Origin: Desulfomonile tiedjei
GTDB taxonomy: Bacteria; Desulfobacterota; Desulfomonilia; Desulfomonilales; Desulfomonilaceae
DNA length: 64,000 nucleotides
NCBI GenBank assembly: GCA_016212925.1
Contig: JACRDF010000043.1
Coordinates: forward strand, 13,726-77,725
Reading direction: 5' to 3'
Part shown: positions 2,131-62,233 of the stretch, piece after piece
Layout of the letters: every line of letters begins with the position of its first letter
Position numbering within the stretch: the stretch's first letter is position 1
Notes under the pieces: model-generated
The model's database searches: none
What the model was told of the DNA's origin: nothing
What the model saw: only the letters and a program-made list of their open reading frames with translations
Translations under genes and position numbers: made by a program

Positions 2131-2215
2131 AAAAATGTGCCGGCACGGAGGCGGCACCTACCAATTTCTAAGAGGCGCTCTCCGTAATCGGACACTGTTT
2201 TTGACACCTGCTATA
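2131..2215. repeat. ~85 nt dispersed intergenic repeat (family C), copy 1; copy 2 is at 31067-31138
   Basis: The core aaaatgtgccggcacggaggcggcacctaccaatttc...tcggacactgtttttgacacctgctat matches 31067-31138 with a few substitutions. Confidence 0.5.
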
Positions 2216-5139: not shown

Positions 5140-5275
5140 CTGTCATTGCGAGGAGTGGAACGAGGAAGCAGTCTCATCTTCGGTGGGACGGGCATCTTGC
5201 CCGTCATTCCAATGGACAGGCGGGACGCCTGTCCCACCATTGGAGATTGCTTCGGGCTGCGCCCTCGAAATGACA
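5140..5275. repeat. Dispersed repeat family E, copy 1: a small MITE-like element with terminal inverted repeats (ctgtcattgcgaggagtg ... ccctcgaaatgacag)
   Basis: The motifs attgcgaggagtg(g/a)aacga(g/c)gaagca(g/a)tctc and gggacgcctgtcccacca are shared with 47610-47690 and 55622-55760. Confidence 0.45.
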
Positions 5276-9200: not shown

Positions 9201-9466
9201 TAAAGGGTAATGGCTTTATTTCTTCTTGAGTTACCAGATAAAGGAGCAACTTACGTGCCAAATTATCAACATTTTGGACCGCGGAGGACCTTTTATTTTT
9301 CATGCCGATTCTCAAAAGTAATTTCCGATTGCCCGGAGTGGCCGATGGCCTGCTCAATGCGCCAAAATTAAGCGGTTTCCTCGGACGGGTGCCACTGCCG
9401 GCTTGTCCGGGGCGGATCGCTTCACCTGCTCTGCCACCGAGACGCCAAGCCGCAAGCCTCCGGGCC

Positions 9467-13438: not shown

Positions 13439-13936
13439 TACCAACTCCCAGTCTGAAAATTGCCACGACGAATAATGAAAATTCTCAACAGATTTGGTGC
13501 CACGGACATGCCTCGCACCCGTGGCCCCATGCAAAAGCCGCCCCTTCTTTTACGGATGGGTTATTCCATAGGAAGCTGTTTCATGCTGAGTCCAAATTAT
13601 TCGTCCGAATGCAATTATTCTGCGTACGGCGCAGGCCCCCGTGCCTGCCCTGGGACCAACGAAACCCTAGGGCAAGGGCGGACGCGGGGGTCCGTGCCGT
13701 ACGAGGCCGAGGCTTCTCTTTGAACCTGAGAAATGTCGTCGCACACGGTTTCGGGAGACAAATCGGACAGTAATTTTGCCAGTTCCTATGAAAACGCCTC
13801 GAAGACAACCGGCAAGATGCCGGCGCCACCGGCGTTTTCATAATTCGTTGTGGCGCTTCCCGCCATGGCAGTTGCTATAGAATTCATTCGGAACTTACCG
13901 GGCCGTGGTTGCCGGCAACCAAAAGATACCCGCGCA

Positions 13937-28431: not shown

Positions 28432-28986
28432 GTGGATTATTCTCTCTACATCTTAGGCCATGCCGAGCGGGACATTAAGAAACTCAAAAAACAGCATCCA
28501 CAACTGGCCTCCAATCTAGCCGATAGAATTAGAAAATTATCTCAAAATCCTCGGCCTGAGCGCTGCCAGGCGCTGGAGGGCCAGGCAGATCTTTACCGAA
28601 TCCATTTTGGTGATGGTAAGTTTCGAATAATATACAGCATTCTAGATGACCCCCAGGCTATAATAATAGTCGCGATCAGACGGAGAAACGAGAGCACTTA
28701 CAAGAAGATTGACAGAAAAAACCTTTCGGAAAAGATCAAATCCCTTAACCTCGAATTGAAAGAAACGATAAGTATCGTTGCCGATCTGGCACGCAAGATT
28801 GGCATCGAGTGGATAGCCAATCTGGATGATGACCAAGTGAGAATTCTCGCTGGGGGCATCCAAGCGATTACGGGCGGTCGCAGTTCTCTTCCAACAATCG
28901 CAGTGCAGATTCAGGAAGCGGTCAAGGTCAAAGAAGACATCAAAACCATTACAAGGGACATGAAGCGCCTTCTACAAGAAATGTAA
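28432..28986 (+). CDS. RelE/ParE-family toxin domain (~90 aa) fused to an uncharacterised ~95 aa C-terminal extension
   Basis: The N-terminus MDYSLYILGHAERDIKKLKK...ALEGQADLYRIHFGDGKFRIIYSILDDPQAIIIVAIRRRNESTY is a RelE/ParE fold signature. Residues 95-184 are predicted helical, with no homology I recognise. Confidence 0.65.
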   Translation: MDYSLYILGHAERDIKKLKKQHPQLASNLADRIRKLSQNPRPERCQALEGQADLYRIHFGDGKFRIIYSILDDPQAIIIVAIRRRNESTYKKIDRKNLSEKIKSLNLELKETISIVADLARKIGIEWIANLDDDQVRILAGGIQAITGGRSSLPTIAVQIQEAVKVKEDIKTITRDMKRLLQEM

Positions 28987-30053: not shown

Positions 30054-30087
30054 GCTACAGTTCGGGCTGGGAAACACTCCGGGCAGT

Positions 30088-30190
30088 AGGATGTGGTGAC
30101 CGAAGGGAACCGTCCCGCGAGACGGGGGATTCGCTGTGATGTGTCTCGATTGATGCGGTTCGCTGCACTCACCGCATCCTACAGCCCTAA
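30088..30190. repeat. ~95 nt structured repeat family B, copy 1; a direct repeat of 30952-31044. Together they bracket the DUF433/DUF5615 gene pair
   Basis: aggatgtggtgaccgaagggaaccgtcccgcgagacgggggattcgc...ctcgattgatgcggttcgctgcactcaccgcatcct. The ends are complementary (aggatgYggtga / tcaccgcatcct) and there is an internal cccgcgagacgcggg hairpin. Confidence 0.5.
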
Positions 30191-30320: not shown

Positions 30321-30545
30321 ATGCATATAGCGTGGCAGGATTACATAGAAAGCACGCCGGATGTACTACATGGCAAACCGCGAATCAAGAGTACAAGAAT
30401 TCCTGTAAGCCTTTTGCTCGGCTATCTTGCTGAAGGATACAGTCCCGAGCAGATTATCGGCGAGTTTCCGGATCTCAACAAAGAGCAGATTGCCGCCTGC
30501 CTGGACTATGCTCGTGATTTAGCGGAATTTGAAGTGGCAGTCTGA
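30321..30545 (+). CDS. DUF433-family small protein (putative antitoxin-like partner)
   Basis: HGKPRIKSTRIPVSLLLGYLAEGYSPEQIIGEFPDLNKEQIAACLDYA is the DUF433 signature. Its stop overlaps the start of the next gene (TGATG). Confidence 0.7.
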   Translation: MHIAWQDYIESTPDVLHGKPRIKSTRIPVSLLLGYLAEGYSPEQIIGEFPDLNKEQIAACLDYARDLAEFEVAV

Positions 30546-30913
30546 TGGGTCTAAGATTCTTTGCCGACCATTGTGTGCCCAATTCCGTCTTAAGGGCATT
30601 ACGCGATGGAGGCCATGAGGTTTTCATTCTGAAGGAGCATCTTCCACAAGATGCATCAGACTCGACCGTCATTGCCAGAGTTCAGGAATTGAATGCCATC
30701 TTGGTCTCGTTGAATGGGGACTTCGCGGATATAGTAACCTACCCGCCGTCCAATTATAAAGGTATCATTGCGATGCAAGTTAAGAATCATCCGGAGACCA
30801 TTCCGGCATTAATGCAAAGACTTATGAATTACTTCTCCGACCATCCGGAAATGACCCATTACCAGGGCAGACTCTTGGTTGTGGAACCTCATAAGATCAG
30901 GATTCGGAAATGA
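30545..30913 (+). CDS. DUF5615-family (PIN-like / Mut7-C-like nuclease fold) protein, putative toxin partner of DUF433
   Basis: MGLRFFADHCVPNSVLRALRDGGHEVFILKEHL..DASDSTVIARVQELNAILVSLNGDFAD matches DUF5615. It is translationally coupled to the DUF433 gene. Confidence 0.7.
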   Translation: MGLRFFADHCVPNSVLRALRDGGHEVFILKEHLPQDASDSTVIARVQELNAILVSLNGDFADIVTYPPSNYKGIIAMQVKNHPETIPALMQRLMNYFSDHPEMTHYQGRLLVVEPHKIRIRK

Positions 30914-30951
30914 AAAATTGGGCTGTGCCCGGCGGCGCGCCACAGGGCCGC

Positions 30952-31044
30952 AGGATCCGGTGACCGAAGGGAACCTTCCCGCGAGACGCGGGATTCGCGT
31001 TCATGTGGCTCGATTGATGCGGTTCGCTGGGCTCACCGCATCCT
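30952..31044. repeat. Repeat family B, copy 2
   Basis: See 30088-30190. About 85% identity over roughly 93 nt, same orientation. Confidence 0.5.
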
Positions 31045-31066
31045 GCTCCCGAGAGAAAATATGCCG

Positions 31067-31138
31067 GCACGGAGGCCGGCACTACCGATTTCCAGGAGGC
31101 GCTTTTCGCAGTCGGACATTATTTTGACACTTGCTATG
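31067..31138. repeat. Repeat family C, copy 2
   Basis: aaaatatgccggcacggaggccggcactaccgatttccaggaggcgct...tcggacattattttgacacttgctat versus 2131-2215. Confidence 0.5.
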
Positions 31139-31244
31139 GCAGTTCTCGAAAGTAATGACGGATTGACCTATGGGTGCCACTGCTGGCTTGTCCAGCAGTG
31201 CGGTTCCATTCAGAAAGAACTTTCGAGAATCACTATATAAGAGA

Positions 31245-39620: not shown

Positions 39621-39652
39621 AGCCCGCGGGCGGCCAAATGGCCGCCCGTTTT
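39621..39652 (+). terminator. Rho-independent terminator after the hydrogenase operon
   Basis: cccgcgggcggccaaatggccgcccg forms a GC-rich stem-loop and is followed by tttttttt. Confidence 0.6.
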
Positions 39653-39774
39653 TTTTGGACCGTCTGGATACTCGCGCGGTTTCGAGTTGCAGCAAATGTC
39701 AAAGACAGTGTTTGATTACGAAAAGCGCCTCTTATACGGGTTCGCTTTCAAACGGTGAGGATGACTTATGGTAG

Positions 39775-39950
39775 TTGTCAAATTTTTGTCCGTTTCGGGG
39801 GAACTCCATTCCGTCATTCCTGCGGAGGCAGGAATCCAGTCCCGCGTCTCGCTGGATTCCCTGGGTTCCCGCCTTCGCGGGAACGACGGGGTGTGCAAAG
39901 CAGAAATGGCAGGAGGGCCGTCGGGGGCCAACGGACATCAATTTTGGCAA
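39775..39950. mobile_element. MITE-like non-autonomous element, copy 1 (short variant), with ~25 bp imperfect terminal inverted repeats (ttgtcaaatttttgtccgtttcgg ... ccaacggacatcaattttggcaa)
   Basis: It shares the TIRs, the actccattccgtcattcctgcggaggcaggaatcc module and the ttcccgccttcgcgggaacgacgg module with 45493-45700 and 61923-62160. No ORF lies inside. Confidence 0.55.
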
Positions 39951-39957
39951 TTACCAT

Positions 39958-39989
39958 GGGTCCAAATCACCACTGACCTGGTGCCCAGG
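39958..39989. repeat. Palindromic hairpin repeat caccactgacctgg(n3)ccaggtcagtggcac, also at 55508-55544
   Basis: A perfect ~14 bp inverted repeat, seen twice in the window in intergenic DNA. Confidence 0.4.
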
Positions 39990-40296
39990 TCAGTGGCACC
40001 CAACAGCCAATCAGGTGCCGGCCCTCGTGCCGGCACCTTTTTAGGATACCAATCAATCACGCCTAGGGCGTGACCTGGCAGGGACCCCGGATCGCGGTCC
40101 GGGGCAGGCTCTGGGCCCTACCGAGTTCTCTGAGCGCCGGCAGTTCCAAAGGTCAGAATTTGTGCCAACTGGCATGATTTAGTTAATAAGTTTTGTAATA
40201 ACAGATAATAATCAATGGAACATAAATTTTGTATGATGGTCTAACTTTAATGACGGATGATTATGATGGTTATTATTTAAGGATCTGGAGACTACC

Positions 40297-43162: not shown

Positions 43163-44497
43163 TTGAGCGCGAGTCGGTATTGGATGAGGAGACTGGTATT
43201 GAAACGCAAAACCGGGCGGCTCGAAAGCAGGCGCGACTTTCTCAAGAAAGTCGGGCTCGCGGGAACAGCTTTCGCAATGACATCTGCGTTGTCGCCTGGC
43301 CCTGTCGCCAGGGCTTCCAAGAGACGAGACCACATCCTGGTCGGCCTGCCCAACCCATCCACAGGACCTCTCGCTGACTTCGGAGAAGCCTCCCCTTGGG
43401 CCAATGAACGGGCCCTGGCAGCAATCAATGGCCGAGGCGGAATTTATGTCGAAGAGCATGGCAAGAAATTGCCCGTCCGAATGAAGATGGTCGACACCGA
43501 GAGTGATCCGACCAGAGCGGGTGAAGTCGCGGTGAAGCTGATCCTCCAGGATCAAATAGACCTCATGGTTGTCCTGCACACGCCGGATACGGTCAATCCG
43601 GTGGCCGCGATTTGCGAGCGTTATGGGATGCCGTGCATCTCGCTGGACGCACCGGTGGAGGCGTGGATGACAGGAGGTCCTTACAAGTGGTGTTACCATG
43701 CGTTCTGGACAGTTGATGCCCTGACGGACCTCTACATCGGCATGTGGGATTTGTGTGCAGATCGGACCAACAAAGTTGTGGGCGGCTTCTGGCCGAATGA
43801 TGCGGATGGCAAGGAATGGTCGGACCTGTTCAAGAAAAAGCTTCCCCCACGCGGATACAGAGTGATCGATCCGGGGAGATTTCCTCATTTCACGAGAGAT
43901 TACACCGGATTTGTCAACCTGTTCAAAAAGGAAAACGTAGAAATAGTCACGGGAGTCGTCATTCCCCCTGACTGGGCCGCGGCCTGGCGCCAGTGCAGGC
44001 AGTTGGGGTTCGTACCCAAGGTCGCTAGCATCGGCAAAGCAATTCTGTTTCCATCCGCGGTTCAGGCGATAGGCAGCGATCTAGCCGCGGGATTGACGTC
44101 GGAAGTCTGGTGGAGTCCTCATCATCCCTTCAAGTCGTCGCTGACCGGTGAGACTGCTGAGACACTCTGCGAAGCCTGGAGCAAAGAAACCGGCAAGCCC
44201 TGGACCCAGCCTATCGGTTTCAAATACGCGGCCCTTGAAATTGCTTTCGACGCTCTTTCACGCGCCGGCAGCCTGGACCGGGAAAAGATTCGGCAGGCTG
44301 TGGCCGCGACGGATATGGATACAATCGTGGGACACATCAAGTATAATGACAAACATTATGCCGAAACCCCGCTGGTGGGCGGCCAGTGGGTAAAAGGAAA
44401 AAGATGGCCGTGGGAGTTGGAAATTATCTACAATAAGGGACATCGAGAGATCCCGAAGACAGCCGAACTCATGTTCCCAATTCCTGTTAACCCCTGA
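43163..44497 (+). CDS. ABC transporter periplasmic substrate-binding protein (Leu/Ile/Val-binding, type-1 PBP family), Tat-type signal
   Basis: Signal SRRDFLKKVGLAGTAFAMTSALSPGPVARA. A type-1 PBP fold region is followed by matching ATPase and permease genes. Confidence 0.75.
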   Translation: MSASRYWMRRLVLKRKTGRLESRRDFLKKVGLAGTAFAMTSALSPGPVARASKRRDHILVGLPNPSTGPLADFGEASPWANERALAAINGRGGIYVEEHGKKLPVRMKMVDTESDPTRAGEVAVKLILQDQIDLMVVLHTPDTVNPVAAICERYGMPCISLDAPVEAWMTGGPYKWCYHAFWTVDALTDLYIGMWDLCADRTNKVVGGFWPNDADGKEWSDLFKKKLPPRGYRVIDPGRFPHFTRDYTGFVNLFKKENVEIVTGVVIPPDWAAAWRQCRQLGFVPKVASIGKAILFPSAVQAIGSDLAAGLTSEVWWSPHHPFKSSLTGETAETLCEAWSKETGKPWTQPIGFKYAALEIAFDALSRAGSLDREKIRQAVAATDMDTIVGHIKYNDKHYAETPLVGGQWVKGKRWPWELEIIYNKGHREIPKTAELMFPIPVNP

Positions 44498-44570
44498 CAA
44501 ACTGAAGGTAATCAGACCGCGGGCCGTGGCGGTTCCGGCCCGGCGTCCTTCACAATCCCGCCGTGTAAGC

Positions 44571-45293
44571 ATGACGGACATTTTAACGGTAAGCCATCTC
44601 ACCAAGGAATTCGGCCGCGTCAAAGCGGTGAACGACCTCTCTTTCCAGGTGGGGCGAGGGGCCCTGCTGGGCCTGGTCGGACCAAACGGAGCGGGTAAGA
44701 CCACTCTGTTCGACCTTTTGGCAGGGTGCTCGAAACCGGACCGGGGTTCCATTGCGCTGGACCGCGAGGATATTTCCGGCCAATCGCCTTCCGCCAGATC
44801 CAGGCTGGGGATTGGAAGGACATATCAGGTACCACGGCCTTTCCCCCGATTAACAGTGTACGAAAATGTCCTTGTACCCGTTACTCACGGCGGAGGTCTG
44901 AGTCAGCGAGAAGGCCGGTCCAAAGCCGAGGGTCTCCTGGAGCAGACCGGATTGTCCGGCAGAAAAAACGATTTCCCATCAGCCTTGAACTCGCTTGAAC
45001 GGAAGATGCTCGAACTGGCCCGAGCCCTTGGAGCGAGCCCGAGGCTGCTCTTACTGGACGAAATCGCCGGCGGAGTGACGGATGCCGAGTTGCAGCAGGT
45101 CCTGCGAATAGTCCGCCAATTGCATGAAACGGGCATAACGATCATCTGGGTGGAACATATACCGCGAATGATGGTGCACGGCGTGGAACGGCTGCTGGTG
45201 CTGTCAAACGGCAGAATGTTAGCTTCCGGCAACCCTCGTGATGTCATGGCTGCGCGAGAGGTGGTCGACGTGTATTTAGGCCTGGTGCCATAG
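44571..45293 (+). CDS. ABC transporter ATP-binding protein (LivG/LivF-like)
   Basis: Walker A GLVGPNGAGKTTLFDLLAG, signature LS...ERKMLELARAL, Walker B LLLLDE. The start is taken at MTDILTV. Confidence 0.85.
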   Translation: MTDILTVSHLTKEFGRVKAVNDLSFQVGRGALLGLVGPNGAGKTTLFDLLAGCSKPDRGSIALDREDISGQSPSARSRLGIGRTYQVPRPFPRLTVYENVLVPVTHGGGLSQREGRSKAEGLLEQTGLSGRKNDFPSALNSLERKMLELARALGASPRLLLLDEIAGGVTDAELQQVLRIVRQLHETGITIIWVEHIPRMMVHGVERLLVLSNGRMLASGNPRDVMAAREVVDVYLGLVP

Positions 45294-45492
45294 TAGCGGC
45301 TCCAGACGGCTCGATCTCCCTTTGGGAGAGGGCCGGGGTGAGGGCGACAAGAGCCAAACCATTGCTGGTCGTGCCACGAATTGGACTTCCTTCCGAGTCT
45401 TGAGACAGTTTCCATGGCTCATCCCTCCATGGAGCGCTGATCCGGCCCCGGGGAAACGTTACCCATGTCCGATTGTTGGGTCTTTATAGCGG

Positions 45493-45700
45493 TTGCCATA
45501 ATTTTTGTCCGATTGGCAAGCACTCCATTCCGTCATTCCTGCGGAGGCAGGAATCCAGGACCGCGTCTCGCGGGATTTCCTGGGTTCCCCCCTTCGCGGG
45601 AACGACGGGCGATATAACGCTCTTGAAAAGTAGGCTCCGCAGATACGATCTGAAGACCAGATTGATTATCTTCTGGCCAAACGGACATTACTTTTGGCAA
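45493..45700. mobile_element. MITE-like element, copy 2 (208 bp), inserted between the ABC ATPase gene and the permease genes
   Basis: TIRs ttgccataatttttgtccgattggcaa / ttggccaaacggacattacttttggcaa. Its internal modules are shared with copies 1 and 3. Confidence 0.55.
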
Positions 45701-45727
45701 CCGGTATAACTGACTTATCTTCAAGGA

Positions 45728-46606
45728 TTGCCCATGCAAGACCTTTTACAACCAATTTTGAACGGCATTCTGCTCGGCGGGCTATACGCGGCAGTGGCGG
45801 TCGGGTTGTCCATGATCTTCGGGGTTGTAAAGATGGTCAACCTGGCACACGGCGACCTGATGATCGTGGGAAGCTATCTGTGCCTGGTGTGTACGGGGAT
45901 GGCCGGAGTAAACCCACTACTTTCTATTGTCATTGTCGGCCCGGCCATGTTTGTTGTCGGCTTCCTTATGCAAAGATACCTGTTCAATCGAGTGCTGCAT
46001 CAAGGAATGGAGCCGCCTTTGATCGTGACTCTCGGGGTCTCGGTCATTTTACAGAATGCACTCTTGCTGGTCTTTTCCCCGGATGCCCGATCCCTGGCGA
46101 CTGACCTGTCAGTGCGCACAATCCGCGTTTCTGACACTCTGAGAGTGCCGGTTCCGTACCTCATAGGGTTTCTTGTGGGCATCATCACGATCGCTGCGCT
46201 GCACCGGTTTCTCAAGGGCACTAATCTGGGGAGAGCTATTCGGGCCGCTTCGGACGACGAGGGCGCCGCGCAGTTGATGGGTGTCGACACGGGCATCACT
46301 TACGCCTATGCGATGGGCATCGCTGCAATGACCGCGGCAATAGCTGGGATCCTGGTTGGCATGACATTCACTTTCTATCCTCATACCGGCCCGCAGTATC
46401 TCATCATAGCGTTTGGCGTTGTCATCATCGGTGGTGTGGGGAGTATGATTGGAACGCTCTTGGGAGGAATGATCCTGGGGCTGGCCCAGCTCCTCGGCGC
46501 GCATTTTTTAGGGCCGGGGTTTCAACTTTTGTCGGGCTACCTGGTCCTTCTTGTCGTATTGGCCTTGCGACCGCAGGGTATCTTCGGGAAAAGGGCCCAT
46601 AGGTAG
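45728..46606 (+). CDS. Branched-chain amino acid ABC transporter permease (LivH-like)
   Basis: 8-10 TM helices with LivH-like motifs (VVKMVNLAHGDLMIVGSY, IIGGVGSMIGTLLGG). Confidence 0.8.
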   Translation: MPMQDLLQPILNGILLGGLYAAVAVGLSMIFGVVKMVNLAHGDLMIVGSYLCLVCTGMAGVNPLLSIVIVGPAMFVVGFLMQRYLFNRVLHQGMEPPLIVTLGVSVILQNALLLVFSPDARSLATDLSVRTIRVSDTLRVPVPYLIGFLVGIITIAALHRFLKGTNLGRAIRAASDDEGAAQLMGVDTGITYAYAMGIAAMTAAIAGILVGMTFTFYPHTGPQYLIIAFGVVIIGGVGSMIGTLLGGMILGLAQLLGAHFLGPGFQLLSGYLVLLVVLALRPQGIFGKRAHR

Positions 46607-46610
46607 CGTC

Positions 46611-47543
46611 ATGCGTGTGATTCGGTTGTGCATCATCGCACTGTTTGTAGCGGGACTGGCTTCGGTCCCGTTCTGGGGGTCGGAATATATGATGGCCCTT
46701 GCGATGATGTTTCTCATATACGTCGCTTTCAGCCAGATGTGGAACCTTCTCGCGGGTTATTCCGGGTTGATGTCCCTGGGCCAGCAGAGCTTCATCGGCC
46801 TGGGAGGATACACGCTTGCCGCGTTGTCGGTCAATCATGATGCGCCACTCTGGGCAGGCGTCCTTATGGGTGGCGCGGCTTCGTTGCTGTTCGCTCTGGT
46901 CATATCTGTTCCATTGTTTCGGACAAGAGGCGTTTATTTCGCGGTGGGCACCTGGATAGTCGCGGAAGCGCTCGGAATCTGTTTCAGCAACTGGTCGTAC
47001 GTGCGCTACGGGATGGGGCTGTTTGTACAGCCGGCTTACAAGGTACCGCTCTATCAGATCTATTATGCTGCTCTGTTGGTAGGCCTGGGATCGGTCCTTC
47101 TCGTTTATTCTATCCTGAGATCGAAGCTGGGGCTGGGCTTGATGGCAATGCGTGATGACGAGGAGGCCGCCCAAACCGCTGGCGTAGAAGTGTTCCGATG
47201 CAAGCTGTACTGCTTTTTGATCGCCGCGCTTGTTACGGGTCTTGCTGCCGGGGTGTTGTATGTGCACCAGATATTCATCCAGCCGTACAAGGCTTTCAGC
47301 ATTGATTGGACTGTCAGGCTGTTGATAATAGTCATAATCGGAGGAATCGGCACCATTGAGGGGCCAATTATCGGCGCGCTGATCTTTGTGATTCTACAGC
47401 AGCTATTCTCGGAATGGTTCAACGTGGGAATGCTCCTTTTGGGTGTAGTGTGTGTGGCTGTTATGCTCGTTGCCCCGCGAGGCATAGCAGGGGCCATGAT
47501 CGACCGGTTCCGATTTGAGATTTTTCCGCTCCGGAGAGAGTAG
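46611..47543 (+). CDS. Branched-chain amino acid ABC transporter permease (LivM-like)
   Basis: LMSLGQQSFIGLGGYTLA...GVYFAVGTW...IIGGIGTIEGPIIGALIF are LivM-type motifs. Start at MRVIRL, 5 nt after the upstream stop. Confidence 0.8.
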   Translation: MRVIRLCIIALFVAGLASVPFWGSEYMMALAMMFLIYVAFSQMWNLLAGYSGLMSLGQQSFIGLGGYTLAALSVNHDAPLWAGVLMGGAASLLFALVISVPLFRTRGVYFAVGTWIVAEALGICFSNWSYVRYGMGLFVQPAYKVPLYQIYYAALLVGLGSVLLVYSILRSKLGLGLMAMRDDEEAAQTAGVEVFRCKLYCFLIAALVTGLAAGVLYVHQIFIQPYKAFSIDWTVRLLIIVIIGGIGTIEGPIIGALIFVILQQLFSEWFNVGMLLLGVVCVAVMLVAPRGIAGAMIDRFRFEIFPLRRE

Positions 47544-47609
47544 CCGAAGACGAGCGCAGGTAGGGCCGGCGTCTCGCCGGCCGCCGAGGGACCGGCGGAC
47601 TGCCGGTCC

Positions 47610-47690
47610 TACAATTGCGAGGAGTGAAACGACGAAGCAATCTCTGCCTTCAACCGCTGAGATTGCTTCGCTACGCTCGCAATGACAATC
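47610..47690. repeat. Repeat family E, copy 2 (caattgcgaggagtgaaacgacgaagcaatctc ... gagattgcttcgctacgctcgcaatgac)
   Basis: An ~80 bp hairpin-forming element with inverted termini, related to 5140-5275 and 55622-55760. Confidence 0.45.
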
Positions 47691-49246: not shown

Positions 49247-49354
49247 TCCCTTGAGGGGTGCACGAGAACCCAAGCTAGAATGTCACGCGGCTGGGGAATG
49301 TCCCGTGTTTGGTTGTGGAACCCGCCCCCGAAGAACAATGTGAGGGCTAGGCGA

Positions 49355-49693
49355 ATGGACACCGCAGATCACGAAGAGATCACTGCAAATATGGTGCGGG
49401 AGATCGTCAAGGCGGTAAATCCCGAGAAGATAGTACTCTTCGGGTCCCGGGCCAGGGGGGATTTTCACGAAGGGTCGGACATTGACCTTCTAATAGTTGA
49501 ATCAGAGCCCTTTGGAGAGAAGCGAAGCCGGCGGAAAGAAATGGCCCGACTCTGGAAAATCCTGGCCGGGTTTCCAATATCCAAAGATCTCCTGGTCTAT
49601 AGCCGAGATGAAGTGGAGTACTGGCGCGATTCCTTGAATAACGTTGTGGCCAAGGCGTTGAGAGAGGGCAAGGTCCTCTATGAGCGACCCTAA
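49355..49693 (+). CDS. Minimal nucleotidyltransferase (MNT, MntA-like antitoxin) of a HEPN/MNT module
   Basis: IVLFGSRARGDFHEGSDIDLLIV is the GSx9-13DxD pol-beta NTase motif. It overlaps the HEPN gene by 14 nt. Confidence 0.75.
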   Translation: MDTADHEEITANMVREIVKAVNPEKIVLFGSRARGDFHEGSDIDLLIVESEPFGEKRSRRKEMARLWKILAGFPISKDLLVYSRDEVEYWRDSLNNVVAKALREGKVLYERP

Positions 49694-50081
49694 GCAAGCA
49701 AGCCTGATGCTCAGTATGGCACAAAAGGATCTCAAGGCCTTAAAGGGGATGATGGACCCAAACGTTTTCGAGGAGGAGATCTTCGGGTTCCATATTCAGC
49801 AGGCAATTGAGAAGGCGTTGAAAGCCTGGCTTGCACTCCTCGGTGTAGAGTACCCATTAACCCATGACTTGAGCGTCCTGCTGAACGCTCTGCAGGATCT
49901 TGGAGCCGATGTGTCGGGTCTGTGGGACCTGGTCGAGTACAACACTTTTGCCGTACGGTTCCGTTATGAATTTGTGGGAGACTGGGATCAGCCTCTGGAC
50001 AGAGACTCCACGGTTCTGAGAGTGGAAGCCCTTGTGAACCAGGTGGAAGGCCACCTCCAGAGCCTACAAATTACCGGTTAG
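49680..50081 (+). CDS. HEPN-domain protein (HepT-like toxin partner)
   Basis: All-alpha HEPN fold. AIEKALKAWLALLGVEYPLTHDLSVLLNAL matches the HEPN Rx4-6H-like region. Paired with the MNT gene. Confidence 0.7.
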   Translation: MSDPKQASLMLSMAQKDLKALKGMMDPNVFEEEIFGFHIQQAIEKALKAWLALLGVEYPLTHDLSVLLNALQDLGADVSGLWDLVEYNTFAVRFRYEFVGDWDQPLDRDSTVLRVEALVNQVEGHLQSLQITG

Positions 50082-55371: not shown

Positions 55372-55507
55372 TCCGACGTATAGTAGTTCTCGAAAGTTAA
55401 CTCGGATTAATTTAGGATGTCCCCCCACGCGGGACGGTCTCATTCGGGAAGAGCTTTTGGGAACAACTATAGTAGCCCCTTCTATCAAGCGATGCTTTTT
55501 GTATTGG

Positions 55508-55544: not shown

Positions 55545-55621
55545 GATGGAGATCCGAGTCACATTTTTAATGGCCAATCGGTATAATTTACGGTGGGGAC
55601 ACAATTTTGTCCTTGCGAGGA

Positions 55622-55760
55622 GTGAAATCCCGCGGAACGCGGGAAAGCAGTCCCCTGCTCGGTGGGACCGGCATCTAGCCGGTCATTCTAATAGACAGGC
55701 GAGACGCCTGTCCCACCATGGGGATTGCCTCGGCGATGTGCCCCGGCAATCACAATAGAT
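55622..55760. repeat. Repeat family E, copy 3 (cttgcgaggagtgaaatcc...gggaccggcatctagccggtcattctaatagacaggcgagacgcctgtcccacca...)
   Basis: It shares the gcgaggagtgaaa and acaggcgRgacgcctgtcccacca modules with 5140-5275. Confidence 0.4.
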
Positions 55761-61906: not shown

Positions 61907-61922
61907 TAAGGCTTATATCGAG

Positions 61923-62160
61923 TGGCAAATTTTTTTCCGATTGGCAACCACTCCATTCCGTCATTCCTGCGGAGGTAGGGATCGTAGGGCCGGCGTCCCT
62001 GCCGGCCAAAATGGGCACCGGCACGGAGGCCGGCCCCTACAAGGTTCCCGCCTTCGCGGGAACGACGGGCGTTATAACGCTCTTGAAAAGTAGGCCCTGT
62101 AGATACGATCTGAAGACCAGATTGATTATCTTCCGGCCAAATGGACATTACTTTTGGCAA
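61923..62160. mobile_element. MITE-like element, copy 3 (238 bp)
   Basis: TIRs tggcaaatttttttccgattggcaa / ccggccaaatggacattacttttggcaa. The ~100 nt 3' module is about 93% identical to copy 2. Confidence 0.55.
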
Positions 62161-62233
62161 CCGCTATAGACTGTGAAGATTGAAATTGTCGAGGGAGACT
62201 TCTTTGAATTGAGAAGCTTCCCCCGCAACTTTG

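What the first reader, a model, noticed from the sequence alone, without database searches (positions are those of the whole stretch)
39775..39950. MITE-like element with 25-28 bp terminal inverted repeats, three copies in 64 kb (39775-39950, 45493-45700, 61923-62160)
All three copies start with ttg(c/t)caa(a/t)tttttgtccg(a/t)ttgg and end with the reverse complement (ccaa(a/c)ggacat(t/c)a(c/a)ttttggcaa). They share internal modules (actccattccgtcattcctgcggaggcaggaatcc; ttcccgccttcgcgggaacgacgg) and contain no ORF. Copies 2 and 3 carry an extra ~100 nt module that is about 93% identical between them (tataacgctcttgaaaagtaggc..agatacgatctgaagaccagattgattatcttc.ggccaaa.ggacattacttttggcaa), which may encode a small RNA. 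Copy 2 sits inside the Liv-type ABC transporter operon, between the ATPase gene (ends 45293) and the permease gene (starts 45728). It may therefore affect operon polarity, or supply a promoter or terminator.
Basis: seen in the sequence. Interest (0 to 1): 0.55.

Follow-up and report, generated by a model that had tools for sequence, protein, structure and literature searches.

The report
Small non-coding transposon (MITE) family
The three repeats are real copies of a small, gene-less mobile DNA element (a MITE) that litters the spaces between genes of an uncultured Desulfomonile-like bacterium; this is a new family of a well-known kind, not a new kind of system.

Summary
Three copies lie at 39767-39958, 45485-45708 and 61914-62168, 8 nt longer at each end than reported. 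They share about 34-nt imperfect terminal inverted repeats ending in TATA, where chance predicts none. A fourth copy lies about 1 kb left of the window.

The two "internal modules" are the two arms of one long hairpin, a doublet of a REP-type palindrome (ATTCCTGCGGAGGCAGGAAT). The "100-nt module" is about 66 nt specific to copies 2 and 3 plus the right repeat. Nothing indicates a small RNA.

The elements belong to a larger superfamily with end consensus TATAGCAGTTGCCAAAAKTNATGTCCGATT. It has at least 15 ends in the window, all intergenic. Complete relatives of 153-368 nt occur in other MAGs and metagenomes.

The source is a MAG labelled Desulfomonile tiedjei. In relatives the ATPase-permease spacer is 24 nt, so copy 2 sits in a spacer that expanded in this lineage.

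The ends align in register with the Tc1 inverted repeat including the flanking TA. This points to an IS630/Tc1-mariner-type transposase acting in trans. No such transposase was found, and the target duplication (TA or a 4-bp YATR) is unresolved.

Verdict: a new MITE family. Interest is low to moderate.

The parts
39767..39958 (+). Copy 1 (192 nt). Left repeat is about 39767-39800, the REP-doublet hairpin core is 39811-39889, and the right repeat is about 39925-39958. The ends read TATG...CATG instead of TATA.
   Evidence: It lies 164 nt after the NiFe hydrogenase large-subunit stop and after an intrinsic-terminator-like site at 39626-39649.
45485..45708 (+). Copy 2 (224 nt), inside the Liv-type ABC transporter cluster. 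Left repeat is 45485-45520, the hairpin core is 45530-45608, the subfamily-specific segment is about 45609-45672, and the right repeat is 45673-45708.
   Evidence: The flanking genes are identified. The orthologous spacers measure 24, 153 and 476 nt.
61914..62168 (+). Copy 3 (255 nt), between convergent genes. The degraded left repeat is 61914-61948. The hairpin arms are 61958-61984 and 62043-62068. The subfamily segment is 62069-62134 and the right repeat is 62135-62168.
61984..62040 (+). A 57-nt GTAG...CTAC palindrome doublet (REPIN-like) nested in the loop of the copy 3 core hairpin. It replaces 28 nt present in copy 2.
   Evidence: (19-nt arms, 89% complementary). The same motif stands alone at 47560-47612.
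45682..45710 (+). Outward-facing promoter-like arrangement at the right end of copy 2: CGGACA (45682-45687), 17 nt, then TATAAC (45705-45710), 24 nt before the permease ATG. The tool also flags TTGGCA, 16 nt, TATCTT at 45694-45721.
   Evidence: Read from the sequence. This is a consensus resemblance only, with no evidence of function.
31135..31237 (.). A 103-nt MITE of the same end superfamily (TATGGCAGTTCTCGAAAGTAATGACGGATT ... ATTCAGAAAGAACTTTCGAGAATCACTATA). It abuts the end of another element at 31106-31135.
55379..55471 (.). A 93-nt MITE of the same end superfamily.
2186..2215 (-). End of a related element (TATAGCAGGTGTCAAAAACAGTGTCCGATT). Its body, 2125-2201, is 79% identical to 31049-31125.
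40147..40176 (-). A weaker end-like site (profile score 16.4). It is the possible right end of a further element, 39955-40176, that abuts copy 1 and shares the tetranucleotide CATG with it.
13761..13790 (-). Solo end-like site (CATAGGAACTGGCAAAATTACTGTCCGATT), intergenic.
9301..9330 (+). Solo end-like site (CATGCCGATTCTCAAAAGTAATTTCCGATT), intergenic.

Best explanation
The three repeats are copies of a non-autonomous DNA transposon (MITE) family in the chromosome of an uncultured Desulfomonile-like bacterium (Thermodesulfobacteriota).

Anatomy. Each copy has two distinct imperfect terminal inverted repeats of about 34 nt. The left one reads TATAGCGGTTGCCATAATTTTTGTCCGATTGG. The right one reads TATAGCGGTTGCCAAAAGTAATGTCCGTTTGG. 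Between them lies a long hairpin made of two inverted REP-type palindromes (ATTCCTGCGGAGGCAGGAAT and GTTCCCGCGAAGGCGGGAAC), followed by a variable segment. Nested insertions and replaced segments produce subfamilies: copy 1 on one side, copies 2 and 3 on the other.

Inferred mechanism. A DDE transposase encoded elsewhere binds the two ends and cuts and pastes the element into TA-containing (TATA/YATR) intergenic sites. An IS630/Tc1-mariner-type enzyme is the most likely candidate. The elements encode nothing themselves.

Copy 2. It lies in the spacer between the ABC ATPase and permease genes, which is 24 nt in the more distant relatives examined. Any read-through mRNA would carry a hairpin of about -108 kcal/mol. 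By analogy with Correia elements this could be an RNase III target or a polar block. Outward-facing -35/-10-like hexamers at the right end could drive the permease genes.

What is shown: the repeats, the ends, the hairpin, multiple copies, the intergenic location, relatives in other organisms, and the short spacer in relatives. What is inferred: the transposase family, the target duplication, and any effect on expression.
For: Repeats are real.
- Three matches each where 0 are expected.
- 89-94% identity between copies.
- Inverted arms of 37 nt at 81% complementarity in copy 2.

The family extends beyond the three copies.
- A profile built from the ends finds 15 end sites in the window. Twenty shuffles gave 0 or 1.
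- All 15 sites lie between the genes mapped.
- The window has no transposase and no RAYT.

Multiple copies in the source.
- A fourth left repeat, 29 of 30 nt identical to that of copy 2, lies about 1 kb outside the window.
- Contigs of sample SRR12113407 that are identical to the window stop 28-36 nt inside copies 1, 2 and 3 and at the fourth copy. Repeats typically break assemblies this way.

Relatives in other organisms.
- Complete elements with the same left-type and right-type ends, 153-368 nt long, most with the same REP-type hairpin, occur in L004, L014, L015, L016, L018 and L021. Ends alone occur in L002, L005 and L022.
- Loci fetched only through the permease protein also carry such ends: L008 4879-4908 and L012 23-52.

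Presence and absence.
- The ATPase-permease spacer is 24 nt in L012 and L013, 153 nt in L008 (different repeats), 476 nt in L009 (a different MITE nest) and 440 nt in the window.
- Homology to L008 resumes directly after the right end of the element.

Transposase family.
- The Tc1 inverted repeat, flanking TA included (TACAGTGCTGGCCAAAAAGATATCC, PMC3680223), was aligned to all 127,948 window positions.
- It places the three right ends 2nd, about 10th and about 12th, exactly in register with the terminal TA.
- No direct repeat longer than the TATA is seen at any of about 10 complete elements.

Structure: folding energies are -104 to -118 kcal/mol, with z-scores of -7.5 to -9.3.
Against: - No autonomous element or transposase with matching ends was found. 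The window has none. The 273 kb of fetched DNA has no IS630/Tc1 signature motif and no end pairs at insertion-sequence distances. The plasmid collection has none.
- The target duplication is not demonstrated, because the flanking TA or TATA cannot be separated from the end of the repeat. Two cases of abutting elements share exactly 4 nt (TATG at 31133, CATG at 39955). They fit a 4-bp YATR duplication at least as well as TA.
- No exact empty site is available. The nearest relatives have about 83% protein identity.
- Copies differ by 6-10%, so recent mobility is not shown.
- The similarity to Tc1 is modest (about 18 of 26 positions), and random window positions reach the same scores.
- Whole-genome copy number could not be counted, because the source contig is not in the searchable collections.
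Confidence: 0.8

Rival explanations
1. The elements are a MITE as above, but mobilised by a DDE transposase that makes a 4-bp duplication of a YATR (TATA/CATG) target, for example an IS5-like enzyme, rather than by an IS630/Tc1-type enzyme with a TA duplication. The element proper would then start at position 5 (GCGGTTGCC...).
For: - Abutting elements share exactly four nucleotides...GACACTTGC-TATG-GCAGTTCTC at 31133 and ...GGCAATTAC-CATG-GGTCC at 39955.
- The putative element 39955-40176 has CATG on both sides.
- Copy 1 carries TATG/CATG where copies 2, 3 and 4 carry TATA. This fits a target-derived tetranucleotide better than an inherited one.
Against: - TATA and CATG are palindromes, so identical 4-mers at both ends are equally expected from inverted-repeat symmetry.
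- The 31133 junction also fits a TA duplication into the terminal TA of the neighbour, which leaves the observed TATATA on the right.
- The in-register match to Tc1 includes the TA.
- Positions 5-8 would make an unusually variable transposon tip (one search list).
Confidence: 0.2
2. The elements are not DDE-type MITEs. They are REPIN/BIME-like clusters spread by a RAYT (HUH, IS200/IS605-like) enzyme that recognises the REP hairpins, and the outer inverted repeats are only extended hairpin arms.
For: - The core is a doublet of inverted REP-type palindromes. The first matches 18 of 21 positions of the Neisseria REPIN master sequence ATTCCCGCGCAGGCGGGAATC (bioRxiv 10.1101/2021.07.10.451892).
- REP loops accept nested insertions: copy 3, and L014 versus L018.
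- A second GTAG...CTAC REP family is present in the window.
Against: - In REPINs the REP sequences form the ends. Here they sit in the centre, and conserved sequence runs 45-100 nt beyond them to specific, asymmetric left and right repeats ending in TATA.
- Superfamily members at 31135-31237 and 55379-55471 have the ends but not this REP.
- The ATTCC...GGAAT REP occurs in the window only inside these elements.
- No RAYT gene lies in the window.
Confidence: 0.08
3. The conserved segment of copies 2 and 3, or the whole hairpin, is a functional RNA: a small RNA gene or a cis-regulatory structure selected by the host.
For: - The predicted folds are very stable (z-scores -7.5 to -9.3).
- Copies 2 and 3 are 94% identical over 126 nt.
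- A weak terminator-like hairpin sits in the segment.
Against: - There is no Rfam match at gathering threshold, and only chance-level matches at E of 0.28 or above.
- No promoter-like site precedes the segment.
- The segment has no counterpart in related elements from other organisms apart from the right repeat.
- The left and right repeats keep conserved non-complementary positions across organisms. That suits protein-binding DNA sites, not an RNA helix.
- The genomic contexts are unrelated: after a terminator, inside an operon, and between convergent genes.
Confidence: 0.04

Closest known systems
MITEs derived from IS630/Tc1-mariner elements (for example MITEPlu5/ERIC, RUP, Nezha)
   Same: - Size of 100-250 nt, imperfect terminal inverted repeats and no coding capacity.
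- Very stable hairpin folds, intergenic location and TA at both flanks.
- The end aligns in register with the Tc1 inverted repeat including TA.
- MITEPlu5 and ERIC are described as IS630-related with a TA duplication (PMC6267812).
   Different: - No parental insertion sequence with matching ends has been identified.
- The TA duplication is not proven.
- There is no sequence similarity to ERIC.
- The core is a REP-type doublet, which is not described for those families.
Correia repeat-enclosed elements (CREE/nemis) of Neisseria
   Same: - The ends begin TATAG(T/C)GG..TT..CAAAA (Correia: tatagtggattaacaaaaatcaggacaa, PMC5039591).
- Correia uses a TA target, occasionally CA (PMC2649163). Copy 1 here likewise ends in CA/TG.
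- Both are 100-250 nt and have no known transposase.
- The terminal TATA can form a -10 box with an internal -35-like hexamer.
- The long hairpin could be an RNase III substrate (PMC10969869).
   Different: - The Correia repeat aligned to the whole window does not single out these ends, and shuffle tests give p of 0.12-0.31. The resemblance is confined to the tip.
- The core sequence and the phylum are different.
- It is not a member of the Correia family.
Chunjie MITE of Geobacter uraniireducens
   Same: A 178-235 bp MITE in a related bacterial group, also found inserted inside an operon without destroying it. It also folds very stably (PMC3184786, PMC10969869).
   Different: Chunjie has 21-bp inverted repeats, 9-bp direct repeats and is A+T-rich. 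Here the repeats are about 34 nt, no direct repeat longer than TATA is seen, and the core is G+C-rich.
REPINs (REP doublets mobilised by RAYT transposases), for example the Neisseria ATTCCCGCGCAGGCGGGAATC population
   Same: The central hairpin is a doublet of inverted palindromes of this REP type, matching 18 of 21 positions of the Neisseria master sequence with a compensated stem change.
   Different: The doublet is enclosed by longer, specific terminal inverted repeats. No RAYT was seen, and this REP does not occur on its own in the window.

Membership tests
MITE (generic) | Short (under about 500 bp) with terminal inverted repeats | tested here: met
   The copies are 192, 224 and 255 nt. 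The arms in copy 2 are 37 nt at 81% complementarity.
MITE (generic) | No transposase or other credible coding capacity | tested here: met
   Only mechanical ORFs overlap the copies, and they match no Pfam family. A 64-aa translation of copy 1 finds no homologue among 5.8 billion proteins.
MITE (generic) | Multiple dispersed copies in the genome | tested here: met
   Four copies lie within about 65 kb. Further related ends are present. Assembly breaks fall inside the repeats. The whole-genome count could not be made.
MITE (generic) | Target-site duplication flanking each copy | tested here: inconclusive
   TA or TATA (YATR) is found at nearly all ends, and no longer direct repeat is seen. This cannot be separated from the tip of the repeat without an exact empty site.
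MITE (generic) | Presence/absence polymorphism at orthologous sites | tested here: inconclusive
   The spacer holding copy 2 is 24 nt in L012 and L013 and carries other repeats in L008 and L009. These relatives are distant (76-84% protein identity), so no exact empty site exists.
IS630/Tc1-mariner-derived MITE | TA target duplication | tested here: inconclusive
   The flanks are compatible with it. A 4-bp YATR duplication fits the two abutting-element junctions equally well.
IS630/Tc1-mariner-derived MITE | Ends matching those of an IS630-family insertion sequence (parent or partner) | tested here: inconclusive
   There is an in-register similarity to the eukaryotic Tc1 repeat, ranked 2nd, about 10th and about 12th of 127,948 positions. 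No bacterial IS630 member with these ends was found. The source genome is not searchable.
Correia element (CREE) | The 26-bp Correia inverted repeat and conserved core | tested here: not met
   Only the tip and the A-run are shared. The similarity does not exceed background, and the core is different.
Chunjie | 21-bp inverted repeats with 9-bp direct repeats | tested here: not met
   No 9-bp direct repeats are present and the ends differ.
REPIN | Two inverted REP sequences that form the ends of the mobile unit | tested here: not met
   A REP doublet is present, but it is central. Conserved sequence and specific repeats extend 45-100 nt beyond it.
REPIN | A cognate RAYT gene in the genome, usually flanked by the REP | not testable with these tools
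   None lies in the window.
Known RNA family (Rfam) | Match at the gathering threshold | tested here: not met
   No matches in the window. Only chance-level matches appear at E of 0.28 or above.

The most novel reading that the evidence does not exclude
A superfamily of MITEs with Tc1-like ends is conserved across uncultured Thermodesulfobacteriota and other phyla, and its core is a REPIN-type REP doublet. Such a chimeric element could be acted on by two unrelated transposition systems, a DDE enzyme at the ends and a RAYT at the core. Its ends would carry outward -35/-10-like hexamers (CGGACA, 17 nt, TATAnn), so that insertion inside operons such as this liv cluster rewires expression, as Correia elements do in Neisseria. 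It might also lead to the still unknown class of transposase that moves Correia-like TATAG-ended elements.
Probability: 0.1. Interest if true: 0.55.

Novelty: new member of a known kind. Interest (0 to 1): 0.3.

Why it matters
- It documents an uncatalogued MITE superfamily in Desulfomonile-like bacteria, together with its relatives in environmental metagenomes.
- These elements break short-read assemblies and can seed spurious ORFs, so knowing them helps MAG assembly and annotation.
- Copy 2 gives a natural case of a 224-nt hairpin-forming element inside a transporter operon. With RNA data it could show whether such insertions cause polarity or supply promoters.
- The Tc1-like ends give a concrete lead for finding the mobilising transposase.

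None of this changes current understanding of MITEs.

Tried and rejected
1. Genome collection scan with the right-end pattern. It gave 6 hits. L002, L004 and L005 look genuine. The three cyanobacterial hits lie inside coding genes and are chance matches. The source genome is not in the collection, so copies could not be counted.
2. Metagenome scan. It gave 12 loci, of which 5 hold complete elements. L017/L025, L019, L020 and L023 look like chance or solo matches.
3. Viral contig scan. All 7 hits are chance matches; L026, for example, lies in a coding gene.
4. Pair of ends 1,968 nt apart in L022 as a possible autonomous element. Rejected: the interval holds only a truncated transposase-like N-terminus that I read by eye as IS1380/IS4-like (not tested) plus unrelated ORFs, and the right-hand end belongs to a separate 220-nt MITE.
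5. BLAST of three end variants against 72,556 plasmid records. Only chance hits. The best, in Bacillus, lies inside a gene.
6. Search for the IS630/Tc1 signature SPDLNPIE in six-frame translations of all 273 kb held. None found.
7. Protein search with a translation of copy 1, meant to count copies mis-annotated as genes. No hits.
8. Attempts to fetch the source contig through window proteins. Only short Logan contigs were returned.
9. The idea that the segment of copies 2 and 3 starts with its own end of the same superfamily, making a nested 96-nt MITE. The pairing is 14 of 20, but a shuffle test gives p of about 0.55. It is left as a possibility only.
10. Similarity of the ends to the Correia, Himar1, Mos1 and IS257 repeats. 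Not above background.
11. Chunjie as the same family. Rejected on repeat length and direct-repeat length.

Full report
**Observation.**
The three sequences exist as described. The 26-nt right-end pattern, allowing up to 3 mismatches, matches three times where 100 shuffles give none. The two internal 26-mers each match exactly three times with none expected. Copies 2 and 3 are 94% identical over 126 nt. Copies 1 and 2 are 90% identical over 110 nt. All three share a 56-nt stretch at 89-93%.

The elements are therefore 39767-39958, 45485-45708 and 61914-62168. In copy 2 the arms are 37 nt and 81% complementary. The left repeat of copy 3 is degraded.

**Anatomy.**
The two 'internal modules' are the two arms of one imperfect hairpin, CCGTCATTCCTGCGGAGGCAGGAATCCAGG paired with CCTGGGTTCCCGCCTTCGCGGGAACGACGG. 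These arms are 31 nt and 81% complementary in copy 2 (folds). Each arm is itself a small palindrome of the ATTCC-N-GGAAT type. The first differs at 3 of 21 positions from the REP master sequence reported for Neisseria REPINs (ATTCCCGCGCAGGCGGGAATC; bioRxiv 10.1101/2021.07.10.451892). The core is thus a REP doublet.

In copy 3, 28 nt of the hairpin loop are replaced by a 57-nt GTAGGGCCGGC...GCCGGCCCCTAC doublet (61984-62040). The same motif stands alone at 47560-47612.

The '100-nt module' of copies 2 and 3 is about 66 nt that copy 1 lacks, plus the right repeat. It contains a weak terminator-like hairpin. It has no promoter-like site in front of it, no Rfam match and no counterpart in related elements elsewhere. 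Its first 20 nt pair 14 of 20 with the right repeat, which hints at a nested mini-element, but a shuffle test does not support this (p about 0.55).

Whole elements fold at -104 to -118 kcal/mol, with z-scores of -7.5 to -9.3.

**Source and setting.**
The permease next to copy 2 is 100% identical to a protein of a MAG labelled Desulfomonile tiedjei, on a 197-kb contig (lineage). The window is ordinary core chromosome. It carries:
- mnmE, jag and yidC;
- glyQS and ksgA;
- a NiFe hydrogenase;
- a Liv-type ABC transporter;
- carB and ackA-pta.

No transposase or RAYT is present.

Copy 1 lies after a terminator-like site downstream of the hydrogenase large subunit. Copy 2 lies between the ABC ATPase (ends 45293) and the first permease, whose likely start is ATG 45734. 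Copy 3 lies between convergent genes.

**A larger family.**
A profile built from the ends finds 15 sites in the window, against 0 or 1 in shuffles. All are intergenic. Some form small complete elements (31135-31237 at 103 nt; 55379-55471 at 93 nt). Others are solo or partial ends (2186-2215, 9301-9330, 13761-13790, 40147-40176). The consensus is TATAGCAGTTGCCAAAAKTNATGTCCGATT.

A fourth copy of the finding's own family begins about 1 kb left of the window, 58 nt upstream of an HTH/cupin gene.

Short-read contigs of sample SRR12113407 that are identical to the window end 28-36 nt inside copies 1, 2 and 3 and at the fourth copy. Multi-copy repeats typically break assemblies in this way.

**Relatives elsewhere.**
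A scan of one genome per species found the right-end pattern in three MAGs. Two are 'delta proteobacterium' and one is 'Pseudomonadota'. In L004 there is a 205-nt element with both ends. Three further hits, in cyanobacteria, lie in coding genes and are chance matches.

A metagenome scan gave complete elements of 153-368 nt in L014, L015, L016, L018 and L021. They show the same left-type (..TTyTTGTCCGATT) and right-type (..TTAATGTCCGTTT) ends, and mostly the same REP-type hairpin.

Loci fetched only because they encode permease homologues also carry such ends (L008, L012), so this is not a selection artefact.

L014 and L018 hold the same insertion at the same site, but L014 has a further 181-nt REP-doublet insertion in the loop of the core REP hairpin.

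**Mobility evidence.**
The ATPase-permease spacer varies between relatives:

| Locus | Permease identity to window | Spacer | Content |
|---|---|---|---|
| L012, L013 | 76% | 24 nt | none |
| L008 | 82% | 153 nt | other palindromes |
| L009 | 84% | 476 nt | a different MITE nest |
| window | - | 440 nt | copy 2 plus other repeats |

The compact operon is therefore probably ancestral, and the spacer has been colonised independently in several lineages. Homology between the window and L008 resumes immediately to the right of the element. The relatives are too distant for an exact empty site.

**Target duplication and transposase.**
Nearly all ends carry TATA, occasionally TATG, CATG or CATA. No longer direct repeats flank any complete element.

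The Tc1 inverted repeat with its TA (TACAGTGCTGGCCAAAAAGATATCC; PMC3680223) was aligned to every window position. The three right ends rank 2nd, about 10th and about 12th of 127,948, exactly in register with the terminal TA. The Correia and Himar1 repeats do not single these ends out.

This favours an IS630/Tc1-mariner-type enzyme and a TA duplication (TA|TAGCGGTTGCCAAAAGT). However, two junctions where elements abut share exactly four nucleotides. These fit a 4-bp YATR duplication equally well.

No autonomous partner was found in the window, in 273 kb of fetched loci or in the plasmid collection. The source genome could not be searched.

**Possible effects on the host (inferred).**
An mRNA reading through copy 2 would carry a hairpin of -108 kcal/mol. 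In Neisseria, Correia elements of similar design are cleaved by RNase III and can supply promoters (PMC10969869).

Every 30-nt end of this family contains CGGACA 17 nt from the terminal TATA. At the right end of copy 2 this reads CGGACA, 17 nt, TATAAC, 24 nt before the permease ATG. The scanner also flags TTGGCA, 16 nt, TATCTT.

These are consensus resemblances, not evidence of function.

**Comparison with known families.**
- IS630/Tc1-related MITEs with TA flanks, such as MITEPlu5/ERIC (PMC6267812), are the closest in kind.
- Correia elements share the TATAGYGG tip, a TA or CA target and an unknown transposase.
- Chunjie differs: it has 21-bp inverted repeats and 9-bp direct repeats.
- REPINs resemble only the core.

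The element fails the sequence tests for Correia and Chunjie, and it has the wrong architecture for a REPIN.

**Verdict.**
This is a genuine, previously uncatalogued MITE family, part of a wider superfamily, with a REP-doublet core and Tc1-like ends. The small-RNA suggestion is unsupported. The regulatory suggestions are plausible but untested. It is a new member of a known kind, and interest is low to moderate.

Noticed in passing
window 30081-30180 and 30945-31044: Two 100-nt direct repeats, 88% identical, each bounded by GTAGGATG..CATCCTAC. They flank a putative toxin-antitoxin pair at 30323-30913: a small upstream ORF I read by eye as DUF433-like (not tested), plus a DUF5615/PIN-like protein confirmed by Pfam. 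The arrangement looks like a small cassette bracketed by repeats.
   Followed up: partly
window 47560-47612, 61984-62040, 31063-31087, 2137-2160, 40017-40040: A second repeat family of G+C-rich palindromes, GTAGGGCCGGC...GCCGGCCCCTAC, often as inverted doublets (REP/REPIN-like with GTAG/CTAC feet). One is nested inside copy 3.
   Followed up: partly
window 5145-5275, 47614-47690, 55610-55754: A third repeat family, cattgcgaggagtgRaacgaSgaagcaRtctc ... gagattgcttcg...caatgaca. Two copies carry a nested hairpin (ggtgggacNggcatct..cctgtcccacc) and are 77% identical over 115 nt.
   Followed up: no
L033 3109-3138 (about 1 kb left of the window start): A fourth copy of the finding's family. Its left repeat, TATAGCAGTTGCCATAATTTTTGTCCGATT, lies 58 nt upstream of an HTH/cupin regulator gene. 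The contig ends there.
   Followed up: partly
L007, L033, L034, L035 (Logan contigs of SRR12113407): Contigs identical to the window end 28-36 nt inside the terminal repeats, at window positions 39802, 45681 and 62134. These MITEs fragment short-read assemblies.
   Followed up: yes
L009 690-1020 (also L010, L011) and L012 53-70: The same ATPase-permease spacer in a relative holds a different nested MITE, with perfect 17-nt ends CATAGGCGTTAAAATAA and an inner element ending GATAGTAGCCCGGC. This spacer appears to be a recurrent landing site.
   Followed up: partly
L014 1871-2238 versus L018 835-1021: The same MITE sits at the same site in two metagenomes. L014 has an extra 181-nt REP-doublet insertion exactly in the loop of the core REP hairpin (GGCG|AAAG), which suggests ongoing insertion into REP loops.
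   Followed up: partly
window 45300-45350 and L008 2775-2870: Another palindromic motif, ctccctttgggagagggccggggtgagggc, occurs in the liv spacer of both the window and a relative.
   Followed up: no
window 28432-28986 and 49280-50081: Further small defence or addiction-type genes lie among the housekeeping genes: a ParE-like toxin, and a nucleotidyltransferase/HEPN pair next to a HIT-family gene. The same HIT-NTase-HEPN order is seen in L012.
   Followed up: no
window 43163-47543: The Liv-type cluster contains one binding protein, a single ABC ATPase and two permeases. The usual second ATPase gene is not in the cluster, in the window or in relatives L008 and L012.
   Followed up: no
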